From positions 15,604,544 through 15,668,543 of the forward strand of contig NC_057746.1 in assembly GCF_004010195.1 (NCBI RefSeq): a stretch of DNA of 64,000 nt, given 5' to 3'. The translations under genes were made by a program, and so were the position numbers. The number at the start of each line of letters is the position of its first letter. The stretch's first letter is position 1. The notes beneath the pieces were generated by a model that saw only the letters and a program-made list of their open reading frames with translations, was not told the origin of the DNA and did no database searches. The DNA comes from Chiloscyllium plagiosum. Lineage: Eukaryota. Of this stretch, positions 12,238 through 58,947 are shown piece by piece.

Positions 12238-13148
12238 TCAGTTGCTTTGCTTGTTCTTTAATTCAATAATTGACCTAATTAGGTATTTCACTGCAATCAG
12301 CAGCTGCTCTCTGAACTTGGATTGAGTTACCCCATAAATAAATGCATTTGTGCAGCAATTTAAACTCAGCACCATAACAGCAACTTCTGCAAAGATATAT
12401 AAAGAATCATTGTAGTATGTGGGTTTAATTCCAGTAACGGCATAATATAAGAAGTCTATAACATATAAAAGCCAAAGTAATATGAAACTTCCGGATATGG
12501 TGAAGAGGAAAATCACAGACTTTCTTCTGCTCTCCATCTCCTGATCACTGCAATTCTCTCCTTTGCTCTGACTTCTCAGCCCTTTGCGAACCCGACTGGT
12601 CACCAAAATGTGTCTGATTGTCAGAGCATTCAGTAACAGAATCAAAGCATATGGGAGCAACGGAGTTAAAATCTGATCAAACCAGTCAAACCCCAACCAT
12701 GCGGGGTCAGTATGATAGCTTGCCTTCTTCATACAGTACAAGGGGATATTGTCAATTATCGCTGCAGGTTCATAGGTAAAGTAAAATGGAATGTCTTTGA
12801 AACAAAGTGAAATGCAGGTTGTTGTTAGCACTATAGTTGCGAGCCTCTTGGTACAATATTTTCTTTTCAGATTCTGGCAACATATCATCACAAATCGATC
12901 AAAGGAGAAAGTGACAGTGAACCAGACAGAACATTCTGTTGCTGCATAAAACAGGACAATAATAATGCTGCAGACAGGGGTGACGTTCAGGAAAGATTCT
13001 GGGAAATAGTAAGAATTAATCTGCCACAGTACAACTCCAGTAATAATGACCAGTAGATCTGCCACTACCATGGCCACAAGGTAGAGAGTGATACAAATGG
13101 ATAGGCCACATTTCCCCTGTGTCAGGATCATAATTGCCACTATGTTAA
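12238..13148 (-). CDS. GPR139-like GPCR gene 1, coding exon 2
   Basis: ORF 12238-13140 extends to the acceptor tttcgtttccag|TTAAC at 13148; open to TGA. Confidence 0.93.
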
Positions 13149-16100
13149 CTGGAAACGAAAAGAGATGGCAAATTAGTGATGAAGCTTCTTACCATATCAA
13201 AAGATTTCTGACTCTTCTTGAGTCAGAAATTAAAACATTTAAACATAAAACACATTTCCAAAGTGACTCTAACTTAAATATGCCAATTTTCATGCTTCAA
13301 GAACATGTCTTGGGGTGAGCAACCGGCCTGCTTCAATATTGTGGTGAGGTTGGGAGTCTCTGATTTCACTTGTTTCTGAGTTTGAGTTTAATTGACTTTG
13401 GATTTTTGATTGGAAGAGAAACATGGCCAGAAATATGTGAACATCAAGAATGCAATACTGATCTCAGAATAAAGAAAGGCATGGAGGACAGTAGGTGTAA
13501 CATAAAACAGTTTGTAAGCATTCTGAGTTTGAAAAGGTGAGAAAAAGAAGCAGAAGAAAGAAGATCTGTGGGGGACAGAACTAAACATTCAACTCAAAAT
13601 TGAATTTCCAGAAACTTAGGGACAGAGAATTTGCAAAGTAACAAAGAAGGTAAAGGTTCCACATGTGGATTCACATATTATTGAAATTCATAAAGCAGTT
13701 AAACCCAGTCATAATAAAAATCAAACAAAATAAAACTGATATTCTGAAGAAATTGAGTTGAGAAATCAGAGATGTTATATTGAAGTGTATGAAACAGTTG
13801 AAGTATACCACAAAGGCTTTTTTCTTCATTTTACAGAAATAATTTAAGAACAAAGACATTGCAACATGTTCTACAAAGCTAATATCAGAACTGTGAGATT
13901 GTAAACTATCTGGAAATAAGGAGCAGGTTGGCATTGTTTGGAAAATAGATGGCTGAGGCCAGACCTAATGGAAGCTGTACATTTATGAATGCGTTTGATA
14001 GAGTCCATATTGAGAAGACAGAATTCAGAAGAAGCACCTTAGAATAATTAAGATGTGTAAATAGCTATAGAGCAATTAACTTGAATGCAGTGTAGATACA
14101 TTTAAGGGCTAACTAGCTAAGGACGTTGGGTAGAAAGTCATTATAAATATTCTGATCAGGATAAAATTAATTATGAAGGTCATATGAAGCAGAAACACTG
14201 TGAATTTTGCCATTTGTATGTAATCTGAGTAGTAATTACTCAAAGTAATCAATTCCTTTACTTAGTACACAATATTGTTTATTAATAAGATTCTATGTTC
14301 GCATTGTAGCAAGGCATTGTTCATATTTACTATCCAGGGACTAACATCTGATGCCTGAAAGCCCTATTTAAGTCTTCAATTATCGGTGCCATTGTCCAAA
14401 GAAACACACTTCACTATCTCAGGGCAAAGGCTGCTATAGGTACACGTGTTGCAACTTTGCGTCTCGGGTAATTACTGGTTCATCAAAAAAAATGAATCAG
14501 TTACAGAAGTAACCCATTTAATTACCGTAGGCTGACACTCAGTTCCTACAACAGACAGATCATGAAAATAAGAAATTCATGACCTACAGATTCTTAGGAC
14601 AGTAGTAGATGAAGGGGATTAATCTGCAACAAATTGACAAAAAATATCTCAAATACGTCATTAGCTTGATGAGTTGAATGGTGTAACAGTTCTGTCTTGC
14701 TGTTTACCTGCCAGTAACTTGTGTTTTTATGTATCTATTGATGCTGTTCAAGTGGAATCATTGCGATATGACACTGCACTTCAGAGACTGATTCTGAAAC
14801 TTTAACAAAGAACAAGAATTCAAAGTTTGTGCGAAGATTTGTAGCTCGGGTGCTCGTTGTTGTGGTTCTGTTCGCCGAGCTGGAAGTTTTTGTTGCAAAC
14901 GTTTCGTCCCCTGGCTAGGCGACATCATCAGTGCTTCGCACTGGCTTCGCAGGAGGCTCCCAAGCACTGATGATGTCGCCTAGCCAGGGGACGAAACGTT
15001 TGCAACAAAAACTTCCAGCTCGGCGAACCACAACAAAGAACATGAATATTTCCATTGCCCATTATATTCATATAACAACAAGGCAGCTCCATGGAGTGCA
15101 GTGTTCAGTCATCTGATTGAAAAAAAGAGCAAACTTGTTTTATTTCTATTAGTGAGACACATTCAGTACCGTTCTATTCTGACAGACACCCTAATAATGC
15201 ATACTCTCTAAGCATTGCCTTCCCTGATAATCTGATTCACCAATGCCTAATATTTTTAATTTTAGTTACAAACAAGTTTGCTGTCAATGCAATGGAGTGA
15301 AATGACAAAGGTATTTTGGATACTTGACTTAAAAAATGATATCACAAACTGACTTTGTATATAATGATAAACATTAGACCAGCATATATCATTACCAGTC
15401 TTGAGACTACAACACCAGGAGCAATAGGAAAAGGAATGGCCATTCAGCCATTCAGCTCTTGAGAGTCTGCTCCTCCATTCAGTAGGATCATGGACAGACA
15501 TTCCTCACATCCACTTCCCTGCATTTTCCCTCTTAGTTTACTGGCCAGGAATCTATCTTCCCCTATCTTAAATGTACATAAGGACTCTGCCTCTCAGCTC
15601 TCTGTGACAGGGTGTTTCAAAAACTTACAACTTTTGGAGAAGAAATTCCTCCTCATTTCAGACTTAAATTGGCATCCTTTTATTCTGAGACTGTACTCTC
15701 TGGTCCTAGACTCTCCCATGAGGGGAAGCATCCTTGCAGCATTTACCCTGCCAAGCCCCTTAAGAATCCTGTCTGTTTCAATGTGATCATGTCTGATCCT
15801 TCTAAACTGCAATGAATAGAATCCCAACTTGTTTAGCCTTTACTCAGAAGGCAATCCATCCACATCAGGGATCATCCTCGTGCACTTTCTCTGCTTTGAC
15901 TTCAATGGAATGTTACTTTGCTTTAAGTTCGGTGACTAAAACTAATCCAGGTGCGATCTCACCAACACCTTGTTCAGTGACAGTAAGAATTCCCTCCTCT
16001 TCTTATTCAAACCCCTTGAAATAAGGGCCAACTTTCTATTAGTTTTCCTGATTCCTTGCTGCACCTGTGTGCTAGCTTTCTGTATTTTGTGCACAGAGAC

Positions 16101-19100
16101 CACTAAGTCCCTTTGTGTTGCCACTTTCATTGAATAGAACTAGATAACCACATTCAACTTCAGTGGTTATGATTAATTATCAGAAATACCAACAGCAAGA
16201 ATCATGTCTGTATCTTTCTGATACTATGAAATGCTTTCACACTTTTCTGTGTAAAGTGATCTGTCCCATAGATCTCTGTTAAATTCTTAAAGCGACTCAT
16301 GCTCAGCATATTCACTCACGTGAGATCGCCAGAGTGAATTTGAGATTTTGACATAATTTAAATTCCATTCATTCATTGTAAAAGTTAACTGTCTATGACA
16401 GCAAAATTAACTCCTGCTTGCCATCAAATATATTTGGAGTTGAGATTAAACTGGCAATCTCTAAAGACTGAACAATTTTAATTGCATTTGTTTACTTATG
16501 AAAGGTAGAAGTAATTCACGTCCAACAAAGGTATTGATCATTCGATCACTATCAGCTCCATCTATTGAGCTCCTAATGTCTCTGTGATCATTTTGCTCTG
16601 TTCATTCACAATTCAATTTCAAACTTGCAATATCCTCTTAGGGCTACTCACTGCACTCTAGCTGTGTACTGTAACTGTAGTCCTTCAGTTAAGTAATTCA
16701 AGTAGGGACTTTGTGCCTATGGAGTCCCAGACTAATACAGTCTCTCTCAAATTAAATTGACAATGATAGATATTTTCAAGGAAGCCCTCTGCAAGTTCCC
16801 TGTGCTGATGTCAGATTCAGCTCGACATGATATTCTATTGAAGGAAATAACTTGATAATTCAGATGCACTGTCCCAAGCTAATCCAACCATTAAATCTAT
16901 TACAGCATGTAAATGCAGGATGGAAATAGCAGTTCAGCATTCCAGGTAACAAGATTTACAAATGAGATATCGGACTACCTTTGCCTGTCAGACTATTCCA
17001 GTCTATAGATAGTTTCAAGTCTCCAATGATTATTGCTGTGCCTTTCTGATAAGCTTTCATTACATCTTCCTTTCCTACTATGTAGTTCATGTTACAGGAT
17101 AAGAACACCATTCTCACATGTGCCTTCTTGCCAGTATCAATTCTAAATTCTGCCAAACTGTTTCCACATGTTGGTTTCCTGAACTCAGGCCATTCCATTC
17201 TACTATGCTGATGCCATCATTAACAAACAAAGTCATCCCTTCACCATTTCCTGGTATCCTATCATTCTGACATGCCCTGTACCCTCCAAGATTCAGTCCC
17301 AAATACTTGCCATTCTGCAGCCATGTCTCGGTACTGGCTTCCAGATTGTCTTCGGAACCCTCCAACCACAAGGGATGCACTCAGATTTCTCCAGTTTCCT
17401 CATTTCCCCTCCCCCCACCTTGTCTCAGTCGAATCCCTCGAACTCAGCACCGCCTTCCTAACCTGCAATCTTCTTCCTGACCTCTCCACCCCCACCCCCA
17501 CTCCGGCCTATCACCCTCACTTTGACCGCCTTCCACCTATCACATTTCCAATGCCCCTCCCCCAAGTCCCTCCTCCCTACCTTTTATCTTAGCAAGCTGG
17601 ACACACTTCCTCATTCTTGAAGAACGGCTCATACCCGAAACGTCGATTCTCCTGTTCCTTGGATGCTGCCTGACCTGCTGTGCTTTTCCAGCAACACATT
17701 TTCAGCTCTGATCTCCAGCATCTGCAGTCCTCACTTTCTCCTTATGTATCTATTACTATTACACCAGTTGCATTTCAAACAATGGTTGGTTTCAGACTCA
17801 GAGCATTTAGAGCTATAGAGTTACAGAGATGTACAGAACGAAACAGACCCTTTGGTCCAACTCGTCCATGCCAACCAGACATCCTAAACTAATCTGGTCC
17901 TATTTGCCAGCACTTGGTCCATATCACTCTGAACCCTTCCTATTTACAGAGGAACTTCGATTATCCGGCATTCGATTATCCGAATTATCCGGACAAGATT
18001 GCAAAGTCTCAATGCTTGGCTAAACTGTGTTATCCAGCATTTGAATATCTGAATATTTGATGATCTGAACAAAATACTCCCCACCAAAATACTCATTCGG
18101 ATAATCAAAGTTTCTCAGTATATACCCATCTAGATGCCTTTTAAATGCTGTAACTGTACCAGTTTCCACCACTTCCTCTGGCAGCTCATTCCATACACGC
18201 ACCACTCTCTGTGTGAAAAGGTTGCCCTTTATGGCCCTTTTATATCTTTCCTTCTCACCCTAAATCTATGTCATCTAGTTCTGGACTTCCCCACCCCAGG
18301 GAAAAGACCTTGTCTGTTTATCATATCCATGCCCCTCATGATCTTATAAACATCAAAACGGTTACCCCTCAGCCTCCGATGCTCCAGGGAAAACAGCCCC
18401 AGCCTATTCAACCTCTCCCTGATAAAAGATACTCATTTATTATCTTCACCGTCCCCTGTGGCTCCACACATAGGCTGCCTTGCTGATCTTTGAGGGGCCC
18501 TATTCTCTCCCTAGTTACCCTTTTGCCATTAATATATTTGTAAAATCCCTTCAGATTTTCCTTAACCAATTTTCAAAAGTTATTTCATGTCCACTTTTTG
18601 CCCTCCTGATTTCTCTCCTAAGTATACTCTTACAGCTTTTATACTCTTCTAAGGATTCACTTGATCTATCCAGTCTATACCTGACATATGCTTCCTACTT
18701 TTTCTTAACCAAAACCTCAATTTCTCTCATTATCCAAAATCCCCTACACCTACCAACCTTTCCTTTCACCCTAATGGGAATATACTGCCTCTGGACTCAT
18801 GTCATCTCATTTCTGCCTGCCTTATTTCCCAAGGGTAGGTCAAGTTTTGCACCTTCTCTAGTAGGTACATCCACATACTGGATCAGAAAATCTTTTGTAC
18901 ACACTTAAATGACAGTCCAAGTCTATGTTTGGAAAGTTAAAATCCCCTACCATAACCACCTTATTATTCTTACACATAACTGAAATCTCTTTACAAATTT
19001 GTTTCTCAATTTCTCACTGAATGTTAAGGGGTCTATAATACAATTCCAATAAGGTGATCATCCCTTTCTTATTTCTCAGTCCCAACCAAATAACTTCCAT

Positions 19101-22100: not shown

Positions 22101-22515
22101 GCATTTAAAGTGAGAGGGGAAAAAGTTCAAAGGAGATGTGAGGGGCAAGTTTTTTACACACAGAGTGGTAGGAGTCTGAAATGCGCTGCCTGGGGTGGTG
22201 ATGCAGGCAGATATGATTGGGGCATTTAAGGAACTTTTAGATAAGCACATGAATACGCAAGGAATAGAGGGATGTGGACTAAGGGCAGGCAGAACAGATT
22301 AGTTTAATTTGACATCATGTTCGACATAGCATTGTTGGTAGAAGGGTCTGTTTCTGTGCTATTTTGTTCTATGTTCTAACAGCCATAGCATAAAACAAGG
22401 GACTTGGTCACACACAGCAAATGCACAACTTCAATGGTCAGAGTTTCTTACCAGGAACACCGATGACAGCAAGAATTGTACAGTATATATTCTTGAGACG
22501 GTGAAATGTCTCCAT
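12238..22515 (-). CDS. GPR139-like orphan class A GPCR, gene 1 (join 22515-22452, 13148-12238; 324 aa)
   Basis: Spliced product METFHRLKNIYCTILAVIGVP|VNIVAIMILTQGKCGLS... with 7 TM segments, ADLL in TM2, DRF in TM3 and NAFIY in TM7. Phase-1 GT-AG intron 13149-22451 at the GxP|xN position typical of GPR139/142-type genes. Confidence 0.9.
14820..15031. mobile_element. Penelope-like inverted pseudo-LTR remnant (67-bp perfect hairpin) with hammerhead motif
   Basis: Arms 14870-14936 and 14962-15028 are exact reverse complements. 16-bp TSD aacaaagaacaWgaat (14804-14819 / 15032-15047). CTGATGA...GAAACGTT core. Confidence 0.8.
15415..16130 (-). mobile_element. CR1 3' fragment
   Basis: ORFs GFYSLQFRRIR...GESRTREYSLRIKG...MRRNFFS and QRDLVVSVH...LVRSHLD. 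Confidence 0.85.
17350..17742 (+). mobile_element. Penelope-like element 3' end (GIY-YIG C-terminal relic plus pLTR)
   Basis: Hand translation FGTLQPQGMHSDFSSFLISPPP resembles the Penelope GIY-YIG end motif GTLxPxGxN. It is followed by a C-rich tract and ttgaagaacggctcatacccgaaacgtc. Confidence 0.7.
17810..20205 (-). mobile_element. CR1 element relic: ORF1 esterase-like part, ORF2 endonuclease, internal deletion and 3' end
   Basis: ORF 19789-20175 (IPISNKYVVL...IGNFLIRGTDRRFC...RMLCCF...HIETND) is a CR1 ORF1 SGNH-like relic; CR1 3' end at 17810-18420. Confidence 0.85.
17947..18118. mobile_element. pogo/Tigger-like MITE, second copy
   Basis: TA|cagaggaacttcgattatccg...ggataatcaaagtttctcag|TA; same family and same CR1 site as 5953-6113. 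Confidence 0.8.
20435..20610. mobile_element. Degenerate Penelope-like inverted pLTR remnant
   Basis: gcatcagaagggcaagagagtcgatgtttt is inverted against aaaatgttgactctcctgctcttctgatgc. Confidence 0.55.
21145..21360 (+). mobile_element. Third tRNA-derived SINE family
   Basis: Head gttcagttggttgga...gggttcaatccc; body matches 44830-45050. Confidence 0.7.
22452..22515 (-). CDS. GPR139-like GPCR gene 1, coding exon 1
   Basis: ATG GAG ACA...GGT GTT CCT G|gtaaga; 64 nt, homologous to gene 2 exon 1. Confidence 0.88.
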
Positions 22516-23086
22516 ACTTGCCCCCCTGAAAAGTGAGCCATTCCTTTGTGCATCAAGCAATCACTCTGTATTAAACTCTAAGGTGAGACATTTGCAGAAC
22601 CTTTATTGTTTACCCAGTGGGATCATCAGGAGAGGTTGCCACATCATTTAAATTAGATTCTATATTTTAAAAATAACACAAGTAAACAATTTATGACAGC
22701 TAAATTAGGTCATTCATGTCACTGGATATATTCAGTGTTGAGACTAAATTAAGAAACTCTAAAGATTTTATGATGTTTCTTTATACTGATAAAAACTGCA
22801 AACTATTTTTGTCCAGCAAATATGTTGATCATTTGAACACTCAATCTTTAAATCTCCTATTATTTCAGTTATTATTTTGCTCTGTTCTATTCCCCATTTT
22901 GTGTTGTCCTATCTGGGCCGATCATTGCATTGTGGCTGCCCCTTTATTTGAGATCATTCAATGAACCTAATCAAGTGGAGAAGGTTTTTCTGTGGATTGT
23001 CAAACTTACAGACTTGTACAACACAGAAAAGGACCCTTCGGATCAACTGCTCCAAGCTGACCAGATATTCTCAGTTAACCTAGTCC

Positions 23087-23285
23087 CATTTGCCAGCAAC
23101 TGGCCTTTATCTCTCTTAACTCTTCCTATTCATGTACCCATTCAGAGGCCTTTCAAATGCCCGAAGGGCCTGTTTCCACATTGTAAGTAATCTAATCTAA
23201 TCTAATCTAATCATTTGCCAGCAACTGGCCTTTATCTCTCTTAACTCTTCCTATTCATGTACCCATTCAGAGGCCTTTCAAATGC
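23087..23285 (+). repeat. 51-nt HE1-type 3' tail insertion (23161-23211) between identical 74-bp direct repeats
   Basis: 23087-23160 equals 23212-23285; the insert is ccgaagggcctgtttccaca...(taatc)n. Confidence 0.9.
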
Positions 23286-23709
23286 TGTAATTGTCCCAGC
23301 CTTCACCATTTCTTCTGACATTTCAATCCATACATGCAACACTTACTGCAAGAAAAGATTGCCCCTCAGGTCTCTTTTAAATTTCCCCATTCCCCCTTCA
23401 ACCTGTGCTCTCTTGTTTGGACTTCCCTATCCTGGGAAAAAAGGCTTTGGATATCCAAAGCCCCAGTCTGTTCAGATTTCCCCCATATCTCAAACTCTCC
23501 AACCCCAGCAACATGCTTGTAAATCTTTTCTGCACCCTTTCAAGTTTAACAAGACTACAGCAGAGACCAAAACTGAATAAAATATTCTAAAAGTGGCCAA
23601 CTAACGTCCTGTATAGCCACACTCCTATACTCAATGCACTGAGCAATAAAGGCAAGTGTACCAAACATTATCTTCACAACTTTGTCTACTTGTGACTTCA
23701 AATATTCAT

Positions 23710-24050
23710 AAAAGCCTTACATTGTGGAAACAGGCCCTTTGGCCCAACAAGTCCACATTGATTCTCTGAAGAATATCCCACCTAAACTCATTCCCCATTA
23801 CATTACATTTACCCCTGACTAATGCATCTAACCTACACATCCCTGAAAACTATGGGCAATTTAGCATGGCCAATTCACCTAAACTGCACATCTTTGGATT
23901 GTTGGAGGAAACGGAGCACCCGGAGGCAACCCACACAGTCATGGGGAGAATGTGCAAACTCCGCACAGACAGTCAACCGTGGCTGGAATCAAACCCAGGT
24001 CCCTGACGCTGTGAGGCATTGTGCTAACCAATGAGCCACGGTGCCACTCC
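23710..24050 (-). mobile_element. HE1-like SINE inserted in a CR1 fragment
   Basis: Reverse-complement HE1 head, core and tail within the CR1 relic at about 23000-24330. Confidence 0.8.
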
Positions 24051-24650
24051 AATTTCACCTTCAAGGAAATACAAACCTGCACCTCAAGATCTCTTCGCTC
24101 AGCAACACTTCCCAGAACACTACCATTAAGTGTAGAAGTCCTGTCCTGATTTGCTTAACCCAAATGCAGGACCTCATATTTATGTAAACTAAACTCCATC
24201 TGCTACTCCATGGCCGTTCGGCCCATTTGATCAAGGTCCCATTGGCCTTTGAGATAACCTTCTTCACTGTCCACTACACCACCAATTTTGGCATCATCTG
24301 TAAACTTACTAACTACTCTTCCTGCATTCAGGACTCTCCTGCATCCTGCAAATGCTTTGAGGGCTGCGTGTAGTGTTTGAGTGCTGCATAAGCATTGGAT
24401 TAATTTTCACTTGCCCACATTGTCAGGACAGGTATCATTCCACGTAAGAGTGCCATGCATTAAACTTCCAGGTCTGGCAGACATAGAAGCAGCCCTGTGC
24501 TAGGTGCACCATAGAAGGCTTTGCTTCAGTTCAGTGGTGAGCACTGCTGCCTCACAGTGCCAGGGACCCTGGTTTGATTCCAGCCTTGGGTGACTGTTGG
24601 TGTGGGTTTCCTCCCACAATCGCAGGTTAGGTGAATTGGCTATGCTAAAT

Positions 24651-24967
24651 GGGCGGCACGGTGGCACAGTGGTTAGCACTGCTGCCTCACAGCGCCAGAG
24701 ACCCGGGTTCAATTCCCGCCTCAGGCGACTAACTGTGTGGAGTTTGCACGTTCTCCCCGTGTCTGCGTGGGTTTCCTCCGGGTGCTCCGGTTTCCTCCCA
24801 CAGTCCAAAGATGTGCAGGGCCAGGTGAATTGGCTATACTAAATTGCCCGTAGTGTTAGGTAAGGGGTAAATGTAGGGGTATGGGTGGGTTTCGCTTCGG
24901 CGGGTCGGTGTGGACTTGTTGGGCCGAAGGGCCTGTTTCCACACTGTAAGTAATCTAATCTAATCTA
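24651..24967 (+). mobile_element. Young HE1-like SINE nested in an older HE1 (about 24530-25130)
   Basis: Full-length consensus-like copy interrupting the older copy after gctaaat. Confidence 0.9.
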
Positions 24968-25310
24968 AAAAAAATTGTGAATAGTGTTCAAGAATGTGTA
25001 GGTTAGGTGCATTAGTCAAGGGTAAATGTAGAGAAAAAGGGTAGGGGAATGAATTTGGGTGGGATATTCTTTGGAGGGTTGGTGTGGACTTATGGGGCCG
25101 AAGGGCCTGTTTCCACACTGTAGGGATTCTGTCACATAACATGAATTCTAGAACATTAGCCATGTGCATTGTGGTTTCCAGGTACCTCTTTATGGAATGG
25201 ACTTTAAAAAAGGCCATTTGGTCCATCGCACCCATGCTGTCATCAAACATCTCTCACTTTCCAGCACTTGACTGTACCCTTGTACGCTGAGGCATTTCAA
25301 ATGCTCCTTT

Positions 25311-25641
25311 GAGAATTCCCCGGAGAAATGTGTTTCTTCAGTGCATTTTGGCCTCACAAAGCAGGAGGATTTATCACGTTCTCTTCCAAGCAGACAGCAG
25401 GCACTGAGTTTTTCTTTCAGCAGCTGCCGTCAGTTACTGTTGTGACTGCAGCACATCCGAAAGGCTGAACTCAACTCACTTCATTGTGTTTCCACTGTCA
25501 CTTCCTGATTCAAAACCTTTTCTGCTGAGCTCAGCTGACTTCCGTAATATCTCACAAGTGTCTAAATTCCTGGAGGCAAACCTTGAATAGCCGAGTTCTG
25601 CCAGAGCTTGGTGACTCATAGATTGTTTGAATTGCAATTGG
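25311..25641 (+). promoter_or_regulatory. MHC class I proximal promoter: kB-like, ISRE-like and S-X1-X2-Y module
   Basis: gagaattcccc (25311-25321); agtttttctttc (25407-25418); S aaacct (25578-25583), 16 nt, X1 gccagagcttgg (25600-25611), X2 tgactca (25612-25618), 18 nt, Y attgg (25637-25641). Confidence 0.65.
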
Positions 25642-25783
25642 TCTGGCCGTGGATTTGTCTCCAGTCAGTAAGAGGCTATTCGAGTGATTAGGAACAGAGT
25701 TTCATGGTCGCACGGGATAGAGCATTCCTGGATTGTGGGGGACACTTCTGCAGAAACGATCGCCCCAAAATTCCTCTCCCACC

Positions 25784-25850
25784 ATGAGTAGAGACGGAGG
25801 AATGGAGGGATTGGTATTCCTGGTGCTTCTGTGTGGGGAAGTCTCTGCAA
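25784..25850 (+). CDS. MHC-I exon 1, signal peptide
   Basis: (MSRDGG)MEGLVFLVLLCGEVSA + A|gtgagt; two in-frame ATGs (accATG at 25784, ggaATGG at 25802). Confidence 0.88.
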
Positions 25851-40800: not shown

Positions 40801-43800
40801 AGAAATGGAATTCATGGCCAGTCCACATGAAGGAGACATTCGGGTTTGGATCTGGTGGAGGTGACACTCTCAGGCCTGAGTCCTGAGGATTATGTCTGAC
40901 ATGGAGCTAAAGGGGACAAAGGTTTTCAGGCTCTATGGCAGGTTTGGTAGAGGGGAGGTTGGTTTTTTTGATGTGGGAGTTTGAGTGTGAGTGAGCAATG
41001 TGTAGTAGAGTTGGGGAGGTGTGTGTCTTCACGTGCGTGTGCTCGTACATTCGTATCCATGTGCTTGTGTTTTCATATGCATGTCTGTGTGTGTCTGTGT
41101 TCGTGTCTGTGTTTGTAGGTCTCTGTGTGCCTGTGTGTTTGTGTTTGTGTCTGTGTCTCTTTGTGTGTGTCTGTGTGTTCATGTCTGTGTGTGTCTGCAT
41201 CTGTGTCTGCCTGGGTGTTTCTCATGTCAGTTTGCTGCTTCTGGGTTCAATTCCCGCCTCAGGCGACTGACTGTGTGGAGTTTGCATGTTCTCCCCGTGT
41301 CTGCGTGGGTTTCCTCCGGGTGCTCCGGTTTCCTCCCACAGTCCAAAAATGTGCAGGTCAGGTGAATTGGCCATGCTAAATTGCCCGTAGTGTTAGGTAA
41401 GGGGTAAATGTAGGGGTATGGGTGGGTTGCGCTTCAGCGGGTCGGTGTGGACCTGTTGGGCCGAAGGGCCTGTTTCCACACTGTGAGTAATCTAATCTGT
41501 CAGTCATTGCAAGGCTTTGAGAGAGCAGCAGGGTTGAGGATGTTGGTTGTAAAAGTATGAACATAGCATGTCATAATAGCTAAAGACTTTTATTCACAAT
41601 TCATGTGAAGCCTCTTTGATCTTTCTGATATTGTGCATGTTCTTTCATCGTTTGTGCCTACGGTTTGTCAGTTCCCCTCCTTCCTGGCCATTGAAAGCTC
41701 ATTAGCCACCACTATCGGATTTCCCAAACCAACCCAAAACCCCTCTTTTGAGCTCGGCAGTGCATCCCAGGCTTCTAATTTTAATCTGTGCAACCTCCCG
41801 ATGCCTCCTGCATCTCTAATGATATCTCTCTTATTTTCATCCACCCAGAGCTTATCACTCTGAGAGGGATAAAATTAAATGTTGCGTTGTTATAATAAAC
41901 CTGCCTGGAACCTTGGTGAGACTGCATTTAGAATCCTGTGTGAAGATCTGGTCTCTGTGTAATTAAAAAGCAAAAATATAGAGACACTGGAGAGGGGTGC
42001 AGAAGAGATGTATCGGGATGGTAACAGAATTGTGTGTGTCTAAGTATTGGGGCAGGATTGGCTGTCTGGATCTCCTCCGTCAAGGGAGCAAGAGAAGGAA
42101 TTGGTAACGGAGGTCATTAAAATAATGAAATGTTTTAGTAGCATAAATATATTGTGAATGTTTCCTGTTGGGTGGGCATAGAGCACCAATAAAACATTGT
42201 CACCTACACAGTCCAGAGGAAATTCAAGAGAAAGTTCTGCAAGCAAACAGGAAAGTGGTGTCACAACCAGACTGAGTGGTTGAAGTGGATAGCACAGATG
42301 GGTTAAAGGAGAAACTTGGCAACAATATGATGCAGAAAAAAATGGATGGCTATGACAACATGGTTCTGATGATGGTGGTATGGTGGCTCAGTGGTTAGCA
42401 CAGCTGCCTCACAGCGTCAGGGACCCGTTTTTGATTCCAGCCTTGGACAACCATCTGCATGGAGTTTGCATGTTCTCCTGTTTCCTCCCACAGTCAAAGG
42501 ATACGCAGGTTAGGGTGATTAACGATGGGAATTTGTATCTGAGTGAATTGCTTTTTGGAAGGTCGGTGCAGACTCAATGGGCCAAATGACCTCTTTCAGC
42601 ATTGTAGGGATTCTACCATAAATTGACATGGGTTCAGATGGGAGGAGGCTTGAGTGGAGCATTGTCACCAGAATGGAATAAATGAGCTGAATGGCCTGTG
42701 TAATCTCACACTTTCTCTTTCTCGCTGTCTCTGAAAGTACACACACTTTTTATTTCTCCTTACTGTCTTACAGTGCCAGAGTCTGACTCCCATGTTCTTG
42801 TTGCTGTTATGGTTTCACTTGGAGTCTTCATGATCATCACTCTCCTTTTAGGGGCTTTCGCTATCTTTTGCAAGAAAGGTAAGATTCCATGCAGCTCTCC
42901 AATGGAGGACCTATGGATATGTGGGGTGAGCCCAGGGCCATGGAAGTAAAGGGCTCATGGTGTTTGTGGAGCTGTTCGGGGAGAGTCCTGAAGAAACTTG
43001 GTGGTGGGGGATTGGCTCAGTCTGTGGGGTCCTGAGTCCAGGGAGGTGACTGTAGCACCTCATCAATGTTTAGAGGCATTGAAGGGTCCCAGGGTTGGCC
43101 AGTGAAGGCTTTGTAGGTGTTCAGGGTGGGAGAGCGGATCTCGCTGTCTGTGGAGAGAACTTAAGTGTGGAGTGCGCTTACCAATTCTGGAGGTCTCATC
43201 GCATGACTTAGCCACGCTCCAGCCAATGTTTTGGCCAGTCCATCAACCCAGTCGACTCCCTGCCTTCCCACACCAATCAGAATGCAAGGAGACATCATAC
43301 CAATTGGATAATGGAACATAGAACATAGAACAATACAGCACAGAATAGGCCCTTTGGCTCTCAATGTTGAGCTGACCTGAGACCTATTCTCAGCTCGTCC
43401 CCCTACACTATCCCAAAGTCATCTGTGTGCTTATCTAAGGATTGTTTAAATCTCCCTCATGTGGCTGAGTTAACTAAATTTGCAGGTAGGGCATTCTACG
43501 CCCTTACCACTCTCTGCGTAAAGAACCTGCCTCTGACATCTGTCTTAAATCTATCACCCCTCAATTTGTAGTTGTGCCCTCTCGTACAAGCTGACATCAT
43601 CATCCTTGGAAAAAGACTTTCACTGTCCACCCTGTCTAATCCTCTGATCATCTTGTATGTTTCTATCAAATCCCCCCTTAGCCGCCTTCTTTCCAATGAG
43701 AACAGACCCAAGTCTCTCAGCCTTTCCTCATAAGACCTTCCCTCCAGACCAGGCAACATCCTGGTAAATCTCCTCTGCACCTTTTCCAATTCTTCCACAT

Positions 43801-46203
43801 CCTTTCTGTAATGGGGCGGCCAGAACTGTACACAATATTCCAAGTGTGGCCGCACCAGCTTTTTGTGTAGTTGCAGCATGATATTGCGGTTCCGGAACTC
43901 AATCCCTCTACCAATGAAACCTAACACACTGTATGCCTTCTTAACAGCACTATCCACCTGGGTGGTAACTTTCAGGGATCTATGCACATGGGCTCCCTCT
44001 GCACATCCTCTGCACATCCACACAACCAAGAATCTTTTCATTGACCATGTACTCTGCCATCCTGTTATTCTTCCCAAAGTGCATCACCTCACATTTAGCT
44101 GCATTGAACTCCATTTGCCACCTCTCAGCCCAATTCTGCAGTTTATCCAAGTCCCCCTGCAACCTGTAACATTCTTCCAAACTGTCCACTACTCCACCGA
44201 TTTTAGTGTGATCTGCAAATTTACTAATCCATCCACTTATGTCTGCGTCTAAGTCATTTGTAAAAATGACAAACAGCAGTGGTCCCAAAGCAGATCCTTG
44301 TGGCACACGACTAGTAACTGGACTCCAGATTGAATATTTTCCATCAACCACCACTCGCTGCCTTCTTCCAGAAAGCCAATTTCTAATCCAAACTGCTAAA
44401 TCACCCTCAATTCCATGCCTCTGCATTTTCTCCATCAGCCTACCATGTGGAACCTTATCAAAGGCTTTACTGAAGTCCAAGTATACCACGTTAACTGCCC
44501 TACCCTCATCTACATGCTTGGTCACCTTCTCAAATAATTCAATGAGGTTTTTGAGACATGACCTGCCCTTGATGAAACCATGTTGACTATCTGAAATCAA
44601 ATTGTTGCTTGCTAGATGATTATAAATCTTATCTCTCATAATCCTTTCCAAAACCTTTCCTACAATAATGCTTGACCTTCTGTCAAAAACTGCCCACCCC
44701 TCCATTTTTCCCTTTTATTTCTGATATTTTAACACCTGATTAAAAATAAATGTGTAAAGGAAGTGATCGATGAAGCCAATCTTTGATACTAATGGCCCTC
44801 TCCACTTCCTTCGGCGTTATAGACAATTGGAAATTGGTTCAGCTCAATTGACTGGATTGTTCATTTGCAGAGAAGTGTGATGCCAACAGCGTGGTTTCAA
44901 TTCCCATCACTGGTTTGAGGTTATCATAAAGGACTCTCTTTCTCAACCTTTACCTTGCCTAAGGTCTGGTGGCCTTCAGGTTAAATCACCACTAGGCACT
45001 TTTCTGTAATGAGAGAGCAGTCTTTATGATCCGATACGACTATGGTGACGGAACAGAAACAAGAGACATTTGGATGTTGGTTGTATGGTCCTCATCTCCC
45101 ACAGACTCCAAGGCAGTCCTGCTATTTAGTCAATGCTGTATATTGGGCCTTGGCGGTGATATTGGGTGGGTGGAAGTTGCAGAGGCTGAGGGTGTCCCCA
45201 TGCTGCTCAGGTCCTGGTGGAGGGTCGCAGGTCAATGGAGGGAGTACTGAGTGTGTGTGAGAGCATCAGGCTGTAGGTTGAGGGCCTTATCTTTGAGGCA
45301 GAAGATGCTACAGCCAGAAATGGGTTTCAGTTTGGGAGAGGCTCTCAGTTCGCTCAGAAGGGTGGGAGGGAATGACGGGGGAGTTGAGGTAAGAACTTTG
45401 GGTGAGTGTGGGAGCGAGAGGGTCAGGTGAGTGTGGGAACAAGGAGCTTGGTTTCAGGTTTGGAGTGAAGTGTTACAGGATGGAGTTAGAGTGAGTCAGA
45501 ATGAGGATTTGGTGGGGAATTTGCTAATTAGGTTATGTGGGAGTGAGAGGGAGCAAAGAGCATTAGGATAAGCAGGAGGAGTGAGAGGGAGCCAAGGAGA
45601 TTGGAGGGGGCAGTGGGAGTAAGAGGGCATGGTGGGAGAGAGAAGGAGCGGGGGCAGTATTTATGTGGGACTGATCTAATGAGAGAAGGGTCAAAACATT
45701 TCGTTTGACTGGGAGTCCTACTCAGTTTTCTGCCTTAATTTTTTTTGTCAGTATATTGTCAATCAGTGAATGCTCCTTGTTTTCACAGTGAGAAGGAAGA
45801 GTGACTACATCCATACACACAGTAAGTTAAATTATCCTCTGGATCCTCTGTCCATTGTGTGACTGATACACTGACCAACTGGTTGCTCCCTCTGTTGGTG
45901 TGTCTCTATCTCTATGTCTCTCATTGACTCTCTTTGTATGGTTCACTATTTGCATTGTGGCTGTGTGAGTATGAGTGTGTGTATCTGACTCTGTGTCTTT
46001 GTGTTTGTATGTATGTGTGCCTCTGTGACTTTCTCGCTCCCTATATTTTATCCTCACCCTTTGCCCTGTCTGTATCCCTCTCCCTGTTTACCCTGTATGT
46101 TTTGTGTGCTTGGTGTGATATTGAACAGATTTTAATGCCTCTCTTTCCACGAACAGCTTCTGATGATGGGATATCCTCAGCCAGTTCCACTGCCAGTTCC
46201 TAA
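25784..46203 (+). CDS. MHC class I heavy chain, probably a non-classical U-type lineage (7 coding exons; 342 aa from ATG 25802, 348 aa from ATG 25784)
   Basis: join(25784/25802-25850, 29886-30146, 36758-37033, 38184-38441, 42774-42878, 45789-45821, 46157-46203). All introns are GT-AG phase 1; the 1029 nt from 25802 are open to TAA. Confidence 0.93.
25865..26390. repeat. About 61-bp minisatellite (about 8.5 units) at the start of MHC intron 1
   Basis: Unit approximately tgtgaggggcagtgccaggctgggggttatgttagcacagagggaaaccaatagagtgagg. Confidence 0.9.
26445..26565 (+). mobile_element. Short Penelope-like 3' remnant
   Basis: gcccgaaacgtcgactctcctg...ccagcatctgcagtcctcact, same family as 61007-61140. 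Confidence 0.7.
27635..27910 (-). mobile_element. HE1-like SINE, diverged
   Basis: Reverse-complement HE1 head and V-domain. Confidence 0.75.
29886..30146 (+). CDS. MHC-I exon 2, alpha-1 domain
   Basis: ctctgtttcag|AT...; (N)SHSLRYLAT...GYVDDVQFFNYDS...FWER...RTNQSG G|gtgagc; 261 nt. Confidence 0.95.
30783..34140 (+). mobile_element. Near-complete degenerate CR1 ORF2 (endonuclease + RT) in MHC intron 2
   Basis: LKLLCLNACSMRNKVNKL, SCLTNLLE...DVIYLDIKKAF, FADD codons at about 33223-33234, LVRPHLEYCVQFWAP and the 3' UTR; many stops. Confidence 0.9.
32147..32461 (-). mobile_element. Young HE1-like SINE nested in CR1
   Basis: Full-length copy interrupting the CR1 EELNNYF...SVFTVED coding stretch. 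Confidence 0.9.
34245..34951 (-). mobile_element. Solo LTR (probably Ty3/Gypsy type)
   Basis: TGTTA...TAACA termini, 4-bp TSD agtg (34241-34244 / 34952-34955), minus-strand AATAAA at 34380-34385. Confidence 0.75.
34960..36610 (+). mobile_element. Old CR1 ORF2 fragments
   Basis: DMAGMLNEHFAQVF, LFRESQRGFVKGK and a degenerate 3' region. Confidence 0.65.
36758..37033 (+). CDS. MHC-I exon 3, alpha-2 domain
   Basis: ctgacag|GG ATC CAC...; GIHWFQLMTGCDL...GWDGQDY...YLEKECVHWLNTYLDYG...SI A|gtaagt; 276 nt; C101/C164 pair. Confidence 0.95.
37040..38180. repeat. GA/GT-rich low-complexity intron 3 containing an assembly gap (N 37330-37907)
   Basis: Purine-rich degenerate repeats flank 578 Ns; (ct)n tract before the exon 4 acceptor. 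Confidence 0.9.
38184..38441 (+). CDS. MHC-I exon 4, alpha-3 (C1-set Ig) domain
   Basis: (ct)n cag|TT TCC CCC...; LSCLVTGFYP...LPNHDWTYQ...YSCRVEH...KLIY G|gtaaga; 258 nt. Confidence 0.95.
39360..39875 (-). mobile_element. CR1 3' fragment
   Basis: Same 3' UTR and ORF2 end as the copy at 7148-7700. Confidence 0.75.
41020..41215. repeat. GT-rich microsatellite
   Basis: Degenerate (gtgtct)n. Confidence 0.85.
41243..41498 (+). mobile_element. Young HE1-like SINE, 5'-truncated
   Basis: Begins at the B-box gggttcaattcccgcc; has the V-domain and taatc tail. Confidence 0.88.
42774..42878 (+). CDS. MHC-I exon 5, connecting peptide and transmembrane domain
   Basis: tactgtcttacag|TG CCA GAG...; VPESDSHVLVAVMVSLGVFMIITLLLGAFAIFCKK G|gtaaga; 105 nt. 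Confidence 0.9.
43314..44665 (-). mobile_element. Relatively young 5'-truncated CR1 (RT C-terminal half) in MHC intron 5
   Basis: ORFs 43980-44705 and 43496-44077 (QHGFIKGRSC, YLDFSKAFDKVPH, VPQGS, FADHT, LVRPHLEYC); a frameshift; catalytic FADD changed to FADH; (gaacata)n tail. Confidence 0.92.
44830..45050 (+). mobile_element. Third tRNA-derived SINE family, second copy
   Basis: Matches 21145-21360. Confidence 0.7.
45789..45821 (+). CDS. MHC-I exon 6, cytoplasmic 1
   Basis: ttgttttcacag|TG AGA AGG AAG AGT GAC TAC ATC CAT ACA CAC A|gtaagt = VRRKSDYIHTH; 33 nt. Confidence 0.85.
46157..46203 (+). CDS. MHC-I exon 7, cytoplasmic 2 with stop codon
   Basis: ttccacgaacag|CT TCT GAT GAT GGG...TCC TAA = TSDDGISSASSTASS*; donor g|gtacaa directly after the stop. 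Confidence 0.85.
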
Positions 46204-47501: not shown

Positions 47502-48456
47502 TGGTCTACCATATCTGACTGGGAATCTACAGACATCATTTCCCAAGATCAGCGTCTGGAGGGGAGAAGAGATTAAGATAGGATTGACTCCTGCTCACTC
47601 TCAAATTCTGGCGCATTTTGAAAATCTGATTCCTGATTCATGGCAACATTAATATTTTGTTCACTGAAATCTGACCTGCTAATGCCGGAGCTGTATAATC
47701 AAAATGTGACTTCTATTCCTGGAAAGTAACCTCACCTCCAACTGGTGACCACTCCCCCACCAGTTACTGTGCAAATGGCACTACCCTGTCAGTGATGGTG
47801 ATGTGTACATGTTTGACCCCCTTCACAGATCATTCACCAATGGGATAGCCTTGGACCTCAGATCCTTGCACTTTCAGTACTTAGTTAACCTTTACCTTTA
47901 CTTGTATTCATAACAATTCTTGTCAAGACTGATTGAACCCAGTAATTGCCTGACTGTGATATAAACTGTCCAACTGCAGGAGAGGACCAGACAGCAGCAC
48001 CTGTGGATAATGGGCCACAAGTTTAAGACTAAGATGAGGAGGAAAATCTGCTCTCTGAGGCTTTGAAATTCTTTCCACAGAGAACTGTGCAAGCAGAGTC
48101 CCTGTGTACATTTAAAGATAAAATGGATCCATTCAGATGGAATCACAGCTGAAAGGGAAGAGGAAAGGGCTCACGTGGAATGGCAGTTCAACCGTGATCC
48201 AACTGAGTGGCAGAGCAGGCTGGAGGGGGAGAATGGCCTACTTATTAAGCTCTTATAGTCTGCATCACAAGCTCATCTCCCTTCCCTGGTATAATCGTTG
48301 TCTTGGAATCTCTTGACTTCAGATGTTCCCTATGTTCAGGTTGTGAGCGCAATGCACTGTCTGACTCTAAAACAGGGAAATAGTGGTGTACTGTACTCCC
48401 AATCATTCTGTCCAGGCCTCTGAGATTCTACTAACGATCTTATCTTTTTTAATAAA
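47502..48456 (+). other. Candidate MHC-I non-coding terminal (3' UTR) exon
   Basis: Strong acceptor tcatttctttcttttccccag ending at 47501; candidate AATAAA at 48451-48456. Confidence 0.45.
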
Positions 48457-49140: not shown

Positions 49141-49146
49141 CCCAAC

Positions 49147-49182
<36 letters not shown>

Positions 49183-49228
49183 CCCCCCCCCCCCCCCCCC
49201 CCCCACACCACACCACACCACACCACAC
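49141..49228. repeat. Poly-C tract plus (cacac)n after an old HE1 copy (about 48850-49135)
   Basis: Long C homopolymer runs. Confidence 0.9.
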
Positions 49229-50526: not shown

Positions 50527-50773
50527 GTTACCTCAGAAGTTCCTGTCCAGTACCTCAAGCAGTGGTTCCTATTTTTGATATTTCAATTATTTATGTGGAG
50601 AAGTCGGCCAAGCTGGGCAAGCGGATCCGAAGGGCCTGTTTCCACACTGTAATCTAATCTAATCTAAAAAAAAGTTACCTCAGAGGTTCCTGTCCAGTAC
50701 CTCAAGCAGTGGTTCCTATTTTTGATATTTCAATTATTTATGTGGAGAAGTCGGCCAAGCTGGGCAAGCGGAT
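50527..50773 (+). repeat. 47-nt HE1-type 3' tail insertion (50627-50673) between 100-bp direct repeats
   Basis: 50527-50626 and 50674-50773 differ at one base; the insert is ccgaagggcctgtttccacactg(taatc)n plus an A-run. Confidence 0.9.
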
Positions 50774-51738: not shown

Positions 51739-52055
51739 GGGCGGCACGGTGGCACAGTGGTTAGCACTGCTGCCTCACAGTGCCAGAGACCCGGGTTCAA
51801 TTCCCGCCTCAGGCGACTGACTGTGTGGAGTTTGCACATTCTCCCCGTGTCTGCGTGGGTTTCCTCCGGGTGCTCCGGTTTCCTCCCACAGTCCAAAGAT
51901 GTGCAGGTCAGGTGAATTGGCCATGCTAAATTGCCCGTAGTGTTAGGTAAGGGGTAAATGTAGGGGTATGGGTGGTTTGCGCTTCGGCGGGGCGGTGTGG
52001 ACTTGTTGGGCCGAAGGGCCTGTTTACACACTGTAAAGTAATCTAATCTAATCTA
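51739..52055 (+). mobile_element. Young HE1-like SINE inside a SINE/CR1/SINE nest (about 50935-52805)
   Basis: Full-length consensus-like copy; the flanking SINE and CR1 halves rejoin across it. Confidence 0.9.
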
Positions 52056-54526: not shown

Positions 54527-55416
54527 TTATTTAATTTTAAATTTGACTATATGTTTCACCATGCTCTTCAATTGTTCCCTGAACTTGGACTGAATCACCC
54601 CATAAATAAATGCATTTGAACAACAATTTAAACTGAGCAGCATAACTGCAACATCTGCAAAGATATGCATCGAATTATTGTAATATTCAGGACTAATTCC
54701 AGTAATGACAAAATACAAGAAATCTATAATATATAAAAGCCACAGGAGTATGAAGCTGCCAGATATGCTGAAGAGTAGCACCATAGACTTCCTTCTATTC
54801 TCCATCTCTCGGTCATGGCAATTCTGTCCTTTGCTCTGATCCCTCAGTGCCTTCCGGACTTGACTGGTCACTAATATGTATCTGACTGTCAGAGTGTTGA
54901 ACAACAGAATTAAAGCATACGGGATTAATGGAGTTATGACCTTATCAAACCAGTTAAATGCCACCCATGCAGGATCAGTGAAGAAGCTTGGCTTTAAACT
55001 GCAGAACCAGGGTATATTGTCAATTATTGCTCTATGTTCAATGGTGAAGTAGAAGGAAATATCTTTCAAGCAGAGAAGAATGCAGATAGTTGTCTGAACC
55101 AGCACTGCAATTTTTCCACTGCAATATTTTGTTTTCAGCTTCTGGCAACAAATGGCCACAAATCGATCAAAGGAGAAAGTGACAGTAAGCCAGACTGAAC
55201 ATTCTGAGGATGCATAAATCAGGACAAAGTTAATATTACACACAGGGGTGATGTTGAGGAATGATCCTGGGAAATAATATGATTTAATTCTCCATAGTAT
55301 AAATGCAGTGATAACAACCAGTAGATCCGCTGTTGCCATGGCTATCAGATAACGAGTGGTGCAGGTGGAGAGTCCACACTTTCCTCGTGATAGAATCAAA
55401 ATTGCTAATAAATTAA
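54527..55416 (-). CDS. GPR139-like GPCR gene 2, coding exon 2
   Basis: Acceptor ctgtcttgtag|TTAAT at 55416; ORF 54527-55399. Confidence 0.93.
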
Positions 55417-58400: not shown

Positions 58401-58947
58401 CCTTTGTTGTTGATTATGTCTGAAAGGGAAGGCGGCAGTTTCATTGAGAAAAAAGCAACGCAAACAAAACAAAGAGAACAATTCCAGGGACTGACCAATT
58501 TCAATACTGACTCTCTGAGTGTCTCCTGTACTGATCACTGACTCGGCTGTACATAATGTACCACTAAAGGAAACAAGTCGAAGACAATCAATGAGACTGA
58601 GAGTTATGAACATGTTTATTGTCTTTCTAAGCAAATGAACAAAACTGGAAATGTAATTCAGGATGTTTAACTTAAAAAAAGTGCCACTGATCCGAATCTG
58701 ATCAGATAAAAAGCATAATTATTAATCAAGACTAAAATGACAGAATGATTCCCTATCACTGATTTACAGATTTCAACTCTAAGAAAAAAATTCCAGAAAG
58801 AACAAAAAAGGAATAAAGAAATCTTTTTTTCACTCCAGGAACTGACTCAATCTCCGAAAAATGCAAGAGTGACAGATACTTACCAGGAACACCAATTATA
58901 GCAAGAATTGTGTAGTATGCTTTCTTGATGCTGAAAAATATTTCCAT
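54527..58947 (-). CDS. GPR139-like orphan class A GPCR, gene 2 (join 58947-58884, 55416-54527; 317 aa)
   Basis: MEIFFSIKKAYYTILAIIGVP|VNLLAILILSRGKCGLS...; 7 TM segments, DRF, NAFIY; same intron position and phase as gene 1; about 70% identical to gene 1 by eye over TM1-ICL2. Confidence 0.9.
58884..58947 (-). CDS. GPR139-like GPCR gene 2, coding exon 1
   Basis: ATG GAA ATA...GGT GTT CCT G|gtaagt; 64 nt. Confidence 0.88.

What the first reader, a model, noticed from the sequence alone, without database searches (positions are those of the whole stretch)
12238..58947. A divergent MHC class I gene embedded inside a tandem array of GPR139-like orphan receptors
Seen: two intact paralogous 2-exon GPCRs on the same strand bracket one intact MHC-I gene on the opposite strand. 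The MHC gene is head-to-head with GPCR1 (ATGs about 3.3 kb apart) and tail-to-tail with GPCR2. No TAP, PSMB or tapasin exons were recognised in the window. Known: in mice, non-classical H2-Mv (M1/M10) class Ib molecules are co-expressed with V2R receptors in vomeronasal neurons, and olfactory receptor clusters adjoin the mammalian MHC. Inference: this may be a shark receptor-plus-class-Ib module (co-duplicated or co-regulated, chemosensory or immune). It could also be a simple MHC translocation into a receptor cluster.
Basis: partly seen in the sequence, partly recalled or inferred. Interest (0 to 1): 0.78.

Follow-up and report, generated by a model that had tools for sequence, protein, structure and literature searches.

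The report
Orphan receptor cluster inside shark MHC
A non-classical immune (MHC class I) gene really does sit between two orphan receptor genes in this shark, most likely because an old, little-noticed cluster of such receptors lives inside the shark MHC, and nothing yet shows that the two kinds of gene work together.

Summary
The layout is confirmed: two intact class A receptor genes (68% identical) on the minus strand flank one intact seven-exon class I gene on the plus strand. The class I protein is identical to a Chiloscyllium plagiosum record and belongs to the known non-classical UBA lineage, as a distinct carpet-shark subgroup. It did not leave the MHC: published work places all elasmobranch class Ib genes there. 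The receptors belong to a very large GPR139-like family, which this scan had already noted in a ray. The new point is that they fall in a subfamily whose 16 chromosome-placed members, from five other sharks, all lie on the class I-bearing chromosome. A published sawfish gene table also shows a ten-gene array between class Ib groups. A repeating receptor-plus-class-I module is not supported: there is one class I gene, no shared flanks, and no matching trees. Co-expression could not be tested. Best reading: two birth-and-death families interleaved in the MHC, working independently (about 0.65). An H2-Mv-like partnership remains possible (about 0.1).

The parts
12238..13148 (-). GPCR1 coding exon 2 (rest of TM1 to stop)
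   Evidence: Open frame, AG acceptor, Pfam 7tm_1 E 4.6e-20
16174..16291 (-). Dead copy of receptor exon 1 inside the GPCR1 intron: start codon and splice donor lost, small deletions
   Evidence: blastn 74% over 99 bases; nhmmer E 1.3e-8 and three-way alignment
22452..22515 (-). GPCR1 coding exon 1 (21 codons, phase-1 GT donor)
   Evidence: tblastn with GPCR2 exon 1, 62% identity; spliced frame open
22516..25783 (.). Head-to-head interval, 3,268 bases; 2,205 match sequence elsewhere in the window (about 95 of these are receptor 5' flank, the rest interspersed repeats)
   Evidence: Self-blast cover
25312..25641 (+). Candidate class I promoter: kappaB-like site (-472), TGACTCA (-172) and inverted CCAAT (-147); the motif labels are recalled, not from a call
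   Evidence: The TGACTCA-spacer-ATTGG pair occurs once in the window; 17 of 100 shuffles give at least one somewhere; the pattern was chosen after seeing the sequence
25784..25850 (+). Class I leader exon
29886..30146 (+). Class I alpha1 exon
   Evidence: Pfam MHC_I E 7.8e-17
36758..37033 (+). Class I alpha2 exon (92 codons, one more than other shark class I rows)
   Evidence: Pfam MHC_I E 2.1e-20
37330..37907 (.). Assembly gap (578 N) in a purine-rich simple-sequence intron
38184..38441 (+). Class I alpha3 exon
   Evidence: Pfam C1-set E 6.7e-18
42774..42878 (+). Class I connecting peptide and transmembrane exon
   Evidence: Hydrophobic exon scan; 100% match to P0125
45789..45821 (+). Class I cytoplasmic exon 1
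46157..46203 (+). Class I cytoplasmic exon 2 with stop
54527..55416 (-). GPCR2 coding exon 2
   Evidence: Pfam 7tm_1 E 3.1e-20
58884..58947 (-). GPCR2 coding exon 1

Best explanation
The window is a piece of the non-classical class I part of the shark MHC. An old array of GPR139-like class A receptors lives in that region. A duplicate of the multicopy UBA class I gene came to lie between two already diverged receptor genes by a local duplication or inversion, before bamboo, zebra and whale sharks split. It then specialised its groove and has been kept since. The genes most likely work independently. The class I gene makes a membrane-anchored, beta2m-type non-classical molecule with a partly altered, tryptophan-rich groove end and its own immune-type promoter. 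The receptors are signalling GPCRs of a family whose ligand pockets have diversified; they probably do not read Trp/Phe as human GPR139 does. Shown: gene structures, lineage, orthologues, chromosome-level linkage, purifying selection. Inferred: exact place in the UBA cluster, order of events, independence, ligands, cell types.
For: Class I: inside the clade holding nurse shark UBA (AAC60347, labelled UBA in the supplement of PMC10751288) at 100/100. It forms a five-row carpet-shark orthogroup at 100/100 on a long stem (0.53 and 0.73). [quoted passage not shown] Receptors: both lie in a 19-row clade at 99/85; all 16 chromosome-placed non-window rows are on the sequence that also carries that species' class I genes, and one row is unplaced. 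On the 124-row tree the MHC/other label needs 11 changes, against means of 29.2 (global shuffle) and 22.9 (within species); 0 of 500 shuffles were as low in either. Zebra shark has orthologues of all three genes on one 31.9-Mb sequence, the two receptors with consecutive accessions. The sawfish chr34 table lists 13 GPR139-like genes, all at 10.1-13.7 Mb of about 19.8 Mb, ten of them in an array between two class Ib groups. No co-duplication trace: no second class I exon, no shared flanks. dN/dS between the receptors is 0.21. Pocket-facing columns vary more than other TM3/5/6/7 columns (1.83 vs 0.65 bits, P 9e-7).
Against: No expression data were obtained, so independence is assumed, not shown. 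Gene order in relatives is not shown, only shared chromosome. The triad seems to have stayed together across carpet sharks, and the head-to-head gap is short for genes spanning 4-20 kb. The receptor sample is the best 120 hits to GPCR1, so it is biased, and the 19-row clade was picked after seeing a first tree. Linkage is not family-wide: 27 of 70 horn shark hits and 0 of 5 Mustelus hits are on the class I sequence. I could not place the sawfish receptors on the tree, so their orthology to this subfamily is untested.
Confidence: 0.65

Rival explanations
1. Selected linkage: the receptors are MHC-resident immune or chemosensory genes kept in the MHC so that they are co-inherited with class Ib haplotypes, without direct contact, as has been argued for olfactory receptor clusters beside the mammalian MHC (recalled).
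For: Persistence of a receptor subfamily on the MHC chromosome in three shark orders and of a GPR139-like array inside the sawfish class Ib region. No 'receptor 139' row appears in the named reedfish sheets of the same supplement (all 13 occurrences are sawfish rows).
Against: Shark chromosomes conserve synteny generally (recalled), so persistence needs no selection. The family also sits on 14 other large horn shark sequences. TRIM, butyrophilin and CEACAM-like families crowd the same interval.
Confidence: 0.14
2. Functional module like mouse H2-M1/M10 with V2Rs: the divergent UBA molecule is co-expressed with, and escorts or modulates, the neighbouring receptors, possibly from shared regulatory DNA in the 3.3-kb gap.
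For: Head-to-head layout; one-to-one retention of all three genes in carpet sharks; strongly altered, conserved groove; the mouse precedent as stated in PMC2375909.
Against: The receptors are class A, not class C. About two thirds of the gap is repeat-derived and the class I gene has immune-type motifs directly upstream. One class I gene faces a family of 1,515 database proteins. In catshark the described olfactory repertoire is V2R-dominated (PMC11979771; that text does not mention this family).
Confidence: 0.1
3. [quoted passage not shown]
For: Both families are multicopy on the same chromosome. The mouse precedent exists (Amadou 2003; title seen only in a reference list).
Against: Two receptors and a relic but one class I gene; no class I relic by nhmmer or hmmsearch; no homologous flanks. 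The receptor split has basking shark and catshark members on both sides (support 93/86 and 82/36, weak), while the class I subgroup has carpet sharks only. In sawfish the ten receptors form a block with no class I gene among them.
Confidence: 0.07
4. The class I gene was translocated out of the MHC into an unrelated receptor cluster, or the arrangement is an assembly mis-join.
For: A 578-N gap lies inside the class I gene; no MHC framework gene was recognised in the window.
Against: The identical RefSeq protein lies on the same 35.0-Mb sequence as other C. plagiosum class I genes, with accession numbers three apart from a UBA paralogue. Identity is even across the gap. The same three orthologues share one chromosome in zebra shark.
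Confidence: 0.04

Closest known systems
Elasmobranch UBA non-classical class I lineage (Gici-UBA AAC60347; horn shark AAC60348); PMC10751288, PMC12562908
   Same: Same clade by alpha1+alpha2 (100/100); alpha3 82-83% identical to the two references; multicopy; on the class I chromosome.
   Different: Alpha1 and alpha2 only 48-56% identical to them; a separate carpet-shark orthogroup; keeps T143 where most UBA rows have Ile; has W146 and a one-residue insertion in the alpha2 helix.
Human GPR139 (PDB 7VUG, 9M42; pocket residues from PMC5430874)
   Same: The only solved-structure match at E <= 1e-8 for the zebra shark orthologue of GPCR2 (E 1.1e-13); class A motifs; W6.48 kept.
   Different: Distant. 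F109, H187, R244 and N271 align with Tyr, Asp, Tyr and Val in both window receptors. P6.50 is absent. A TM3/ECL2 cysteine pair is present in 123-124 of 124 rows but not in the aligned human chain. The family is massively multicopy.
Olfactory receptor genes interleaved with class Ib genes in the mouse H2-M region (Amadou 2003, title only) and the receptor cluster beside the mammalian MHC (recalled)
   Same: A multicopy class A receptor family physically mixed with non-classical class I genes in the MHC.
   Different: Different receptor family; two coding exons; no evidence here of joint duplication.
Mouse H2-M1/M10 with V2R pheromone receptors (PMC2375909 passage)
   Same: A divergent class Ib gene and a large putative sensory receptor family.
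   Different: V2Rs are class C receptors (recalled), and that system is defined by co-expression and association, neither shown here.

Membership tests
UBA non-classical class I lineage | Groups with nurse shark UBA in alpha1+alpha2 trees, apart from classical-type sequences | tested here: met
   100/100 in a 57-row tree; 100/99 in a 54-row sharks-only tree
UBA non-classical class I lineage | Alpha3 domain close to UBA | tested here: met
   76-88% to paralogous UBA-clade rows (65% to one sawshark row) against 48-60% to the ten classical-type rows
UBA non-classical class I lineage | Lies in the UBA cluster flanked by c4 and rxrb | tested here: inconclusive
   Same chromosome-scale sequence and near-adjacent accession to another UBA gene; no coordinates, and no genome is held
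Classical class Ia (UAA) | All eight peptide-terminus anchor residues | tested here: not met
   6 of 8 kept (Y7, R84, T143, W147, Y159, Y171); Y59F and K146W in all five orthologues; 9 of 10 classical-type rows keep all eight (HLA numbering recalled, positions set against 6LUP)
Classical class Ia (UAA) | Tight linkage to TAP and PSMB8/9 | tested here: inconclusive
   None recognised in 64 kb; the class Ia region spans 87 kb to 1.9 Mb in published species
Classical class Ia (UAA) | High allelic polymorphism, broad expression | not testable with these tools
   No population or expression data; 98% identity to the C. punctatum orthologue in alpha1 and alpha2 hints at low variability
GPR139 orthologue | Agonist pocket F109, H187, W241, R244, N271 | tested here: not met
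   1 of 5 identical, 1 conservative
GPR139 orthologue | Single-copy gene (recalled) | tested here: not met
   1,515 proteins at E <= 0.001 among 2,266 candidates; 70 of the best 120 are from one species
H2-Mv/V2R-type partnership | Partner is a class C V2R | tested here: not met
   Both receptors match only Pfam 7tm_1
H2-Mv/V2R-type partnership | Co-expression in the same sensory cells | not testable with these tools
   No read data obtained; the catshark expression supplement could not be read
H2-Mv/V2R-type partnership | Physical association of class Ib and receptor | not tested
   No complex prediction run; adjacency alone did not justify it
Co-duplicated receptor/class I module | Repeated units containing both genes, with shared flanks | tested here: not met
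   Within the 64-kb window only; the sawfish receptor block holds no class I gene
Co-duplicated receptor/class I module | Congruent gene trees | tested here: inconclusive
   The receptor duplication looks older than the class I subgroup, but the deep branches are weakly supported

The most novel reading that the evidence does not exclude
A GPR139-like receptor subfamily has been resident in the elasmobranch MHC since the shark-ray split and is functionally paired with UBA class Ib molecules. The carpet-shark UBA variant here is co-expressed with its flanking receptors and escorts them or hands them ligand: a shark counterpart, evolved independently, of the mouse H2-Mv/V2R system.
Probability: 0.1. 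Interest if true: 0.85.

Novelty: new variant of a known kind. Interest (0 to 1): 0.47.

Why it matters
The elasmobranch MHC is used to reconstruct the ancestral MHC, yet the paper that mapped it does not mention this receptor array: 'GPCR', 'G protein' and 'olfactory' have 0 occurrences in its main text, although its own sawfish table lists 13 such genes. A conserved MHC-linked subfamily gives a concrete entry point into a very large orphan receptor family with variable pockets. It also parallels, with a different receptor family, the receptor clusters in the mammalian MHC, so one can test whether that association is selected or a by-product of duplication-prone DNA. The conserved carpet-shark UBA variant is a tractable class Ib molecule for ligand elution in a species kept in laboratories.

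Tried and rejected
Whole-genome search: no genome is held for this window, so flanking DNA could not be read. Expression: the run search listed no RNA holder, which is no evidence either way, and no reads were laid, so expression is open. The catshark sensory-organ paper has no 'GPR', 'G-protein coupled' or 'MHC' hit in its text, and its supplement was too large to read; it may bear on expression. Almeida 2021 on a complex shark class Ib lineage (PMC8454915) is not held and may already describe this UBA subgroup. White shark and catshark gene tables carry no gene names, so receptors could not be placed there; I did not try to map accession numbers to gene IDs. Accession order was used only as a weak hint. 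Searches for further class I or receptor exon-2 relics found none of weight (two nhmmer hits at E 0.025 and 0.44, set aside). The structure model (mean pLDDT 77.7, pTM 0.61) and fold search confirm an ordinary class I fold, best match shark class I 6LUP, and say nothing about ligand. The ESM Atlas gave GPR139-like chordate clusters first. The representative search gave 109 clusters at E <= 1e-30 without names and was not used further. The first FastTree supports were replaced by IQ-TREE runs. Rows left out: two thirds of the horn shark and sawshark rows (68 of 125 kept); six outgroup, three long-branch and one duplicate row, plus rows under 140 residues. No complex prediction was run.
Full report
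Observation. GPCR1 (exons 22515-22452, 13148-12238) and GPCR2 (58947-58884, 55416-54527) are intact minus-strand genes of 324 and 317 residues, 68% identical, each with a phase-1 intron after codon 21. Both match Pfam 7tm_1 only. Between them, on the plus strand, is a complete class I gene of seven coding exons and 348 residues. The ATG-to-ATG distance to GPCR1 is 3,269 bases and the stop-to-stop distance to GPCR2 is 8,324. A third, dead copy of receptor exon 1 lies in the GPCR1 intron at 16174-16291. The only gap, 578 N, is in the alpha2-alpha3 intron. Identity to orthologues is the same on both sides of it, so the gene is not a chimaera.

The class I gene. Its protein is 100% identical to Chiloscyllium plagiosum XP_043533912.1, 97% to C. 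punctatum, 94% to Hemiscyllium and 78-79% to whale and zebra shark. Alpha1+alpha2 trees place it in the clade that holds nurse shark AAC60347, labelled UBA in the supplement of PMC10751288, at 100/100. Its five carpet-shark orthologues form their own 100/100 group on a long stem, outside the main carpet-shark UBA radiation. Alpha3 is 76-88% identical to paralogous UBA rows (65% to one sawshark row) while alpha1 and alpha2 are at most 57% identical. Six of eight peptide-terminus anchors remain; Y59F and K146W are fixed in all five orthologues, and the alpha2 helix has a one-residue insertion and extra tryptophans. An AlphaFold2 model gives a normal class I fold, closest to shark class I 6LUP. 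So 'divergent' is right, and it is a member of a known non-classical lineage. My inference is a specialised, low-variability molecule that still anchors a ligand at the A-pocket end.

The receptors. GPCR1 retrieves 1,515 proteins at E <= 0.001 among 2,266 candidates. All of the best 120 are shark records; 116 are named 'G-protein coupled receptor 139', three 'neuropeptides capa receptor-like' and one uncharacterised. Human GPR139 is the only solved-structure match at E <= 1e-8. Of the five pocket residues discussed in PMC5430874 only W241 is identical; F109, H187, R244 and N271 align with Tyr, Asp, Tyr and Val. The DRF motif, W6.48, N7.49, Y7.53 and a TM3/ECL2 cysteine pair are nearly invariant in 124 rows, whereas 18 pocket-facing columns are far more variable than the rest of TM3/5/6/7 (1.83 against 0.65 bits). 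dN/dS between the two window genes is 0.21, with dS 0.91. These are working receptors of a ligand-diversified family, not GPR139 orthologues. An earlier scan note (e1-7813824) had reported this family in a ray; that note is unchecked AI output, and I confirmed only the family's size and shark membership.

The neighbourhood is conserved. Using contig length as a chromosome tag, 42 of the best 120 receptor hits lie on the sequence that carries that species' class I genes, 41 on other large sequences, and 37 are unplaced or unassignable. Both window receptors fall in a 19-row clade (99/85) whose 16 placed non-window members, from basking, zebra and whale sharks and two catsharks, are all on the class I sequence; one whale shark row is on an 8.9-kb scaffold. 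The label is clustered on the 124-row tree (11 changes; shuffled means 29.2 and 22.9; 0 of 500 as low), though near-copies inflate this. Zebra shark carries orthologues of all three genes on one 31.9-Mb sequence, and whale shark carries the class I and GPCR2 orthologues on one 25.1-Mb sequence. Against a family-wide link: 27 of 70 horn shark hits and 0 of 5 Mustelus hits are on the class I sequence, and horn shark members occupy 15 large sequences. Independently, the sawfish chr34 table of PMC10751288 lists 13 GPR139-like genes, all within 10.1-13.7 Mb of about 19.8 Mb. Ten form an array between two groups of class Ib genes, and two sit among C4 genes 0.44 and 0.56 Mb from the second class Ib cluster. 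[quoted passage not shown] TAP and PSMB genes are 3-5 Mb from the sawfish class Ib clusters, so their absence from 64 kb means nothing.

Is it a module? The window holds one class I gene and no class I relic. The two receptor genes share only their exons and about 100 bases upstream of exon 1; all other matches between the two halves look like interspersed repeats. The receptor duplication appears to have basking shark and catshark relatives on both sides (weak support), while the class I subgroup was found only in carpet sharks. About two thirds of the head-to-head gap is repeat-derived, and the unique DNA next to the class I leader has a kappaB-like site and a TGACTCA/inverted-CCAAT pair at -172/-147. 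These resemble an ordinary class I promoter (labels recalled; pattern chosen after the fact). In sawfish the ten-receptor block contains no class I gene. I obtained no expression data, so co-regulation is neither shown nor excluded.

How it most likely works. An old receptor array in the MHC class III/class Ib interval gained a UBA duplicate between two members by local rearrangement, before the carpet-shark radiation. The class I gene then fixed a new groove. The receptors signal on their own, probably to ligands other than Trp/Phe. I give this 0.65, selected linkage without contact 0.14, an H2-Mv-like partnership 0.10, co-duplication 0.07, and translocation or mis-join 0.04.

Literature seen. 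PMC10751288: passages, part 2 of 7, section 9, five supplement searches and supplement parts 4, 10, 18 and 19. PMC12562908, PMC5430874, PMC11979771, PMC2375909 and PMC7677710: passages only (plus one supplement search for the last). bioRxiv 10.64898/2026.03.23.713620: a term search with no hits. Amadou 2003, Loconto 2003 and Ishii 2003: titles in a reference list only. Searches for a description of this receptor family or its MHC link: 'GPR139'+'shark' gave 4 papers, none on it by their listings; 'receptor 139'+'shark'+'expansion' gave 1, on a snail; none of the 40 listed of 3,102 papers held either GPR139 term; two searches gave 0. Subscription journals are mostly absent from this library, and Almeida 2021 was not held.

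Verdict. The feature is real and conserved, but it is better described as an overlooked orphan receptor cluster within the elasmobranch MHC than as an MHC gene captured by a receptor array. It is a new variant of a known arrangement (receptor clusters mixed with class Ib genes). Interest 0.47.

Noticed in passing
one search hit list: No Chiloscyllium or Hemiscyllium protein is among the best 120 hits to GPCR1, although orthologues should rank first. The two intact window receptors may be missing from protein annotation.
   Followed up: no
window 58948-59127 (-): The frame upstream of the GPCR2 start is open for at least 60 codons, with an in-frame ATG 42 codons upstream, and the zebra shark model has a similar N-terminal extension; GPCR1 has stops there. 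A longer N-terminus is possible.
   Followed up: partly
window 47496-47573 (+): Matches (85%) the different C-terminus of an older C. punctatum model of the class I gene (P0123): a possible alternative last exon or a prediction artefact.
   Followed up: no
window 25866-26362: A 61-base minisatellite (about 8 copies) starts 15 bases into class I intron 1.
   Followed up: no
window 60403-60831: A 33-base tandem repeat (13 copies) lies in an open 211-codon minus-strand frame about 1.5 kb upstream of GPCR2; probably a minisatellite.
   Followed up: no
window 43499-44714 (-): Two overlapping open frames that look like a LINE reverse-transcriptase fragment in the class I TM-cytoplasmic intron (label recalled, not tested).
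   Followed up: no
PMC10751288 supplement, sawfish chr34 10.07-11.85 Mb: Two lone GPR139-like genes each follow a TRIM39-like gene, and one lies between two C4-like genes; receptor copies are scattered through the class III-like interval.
   Followed up: no
tree: A second classical-type class I group (P0181, P0185, P0183, P0229) with seven or eight anchors intact is conserved across catsharks and carpet sharks; it may correspond to the 'MHC-Ia-like' genes mentioned in PMC10751288.
   Followed up: no
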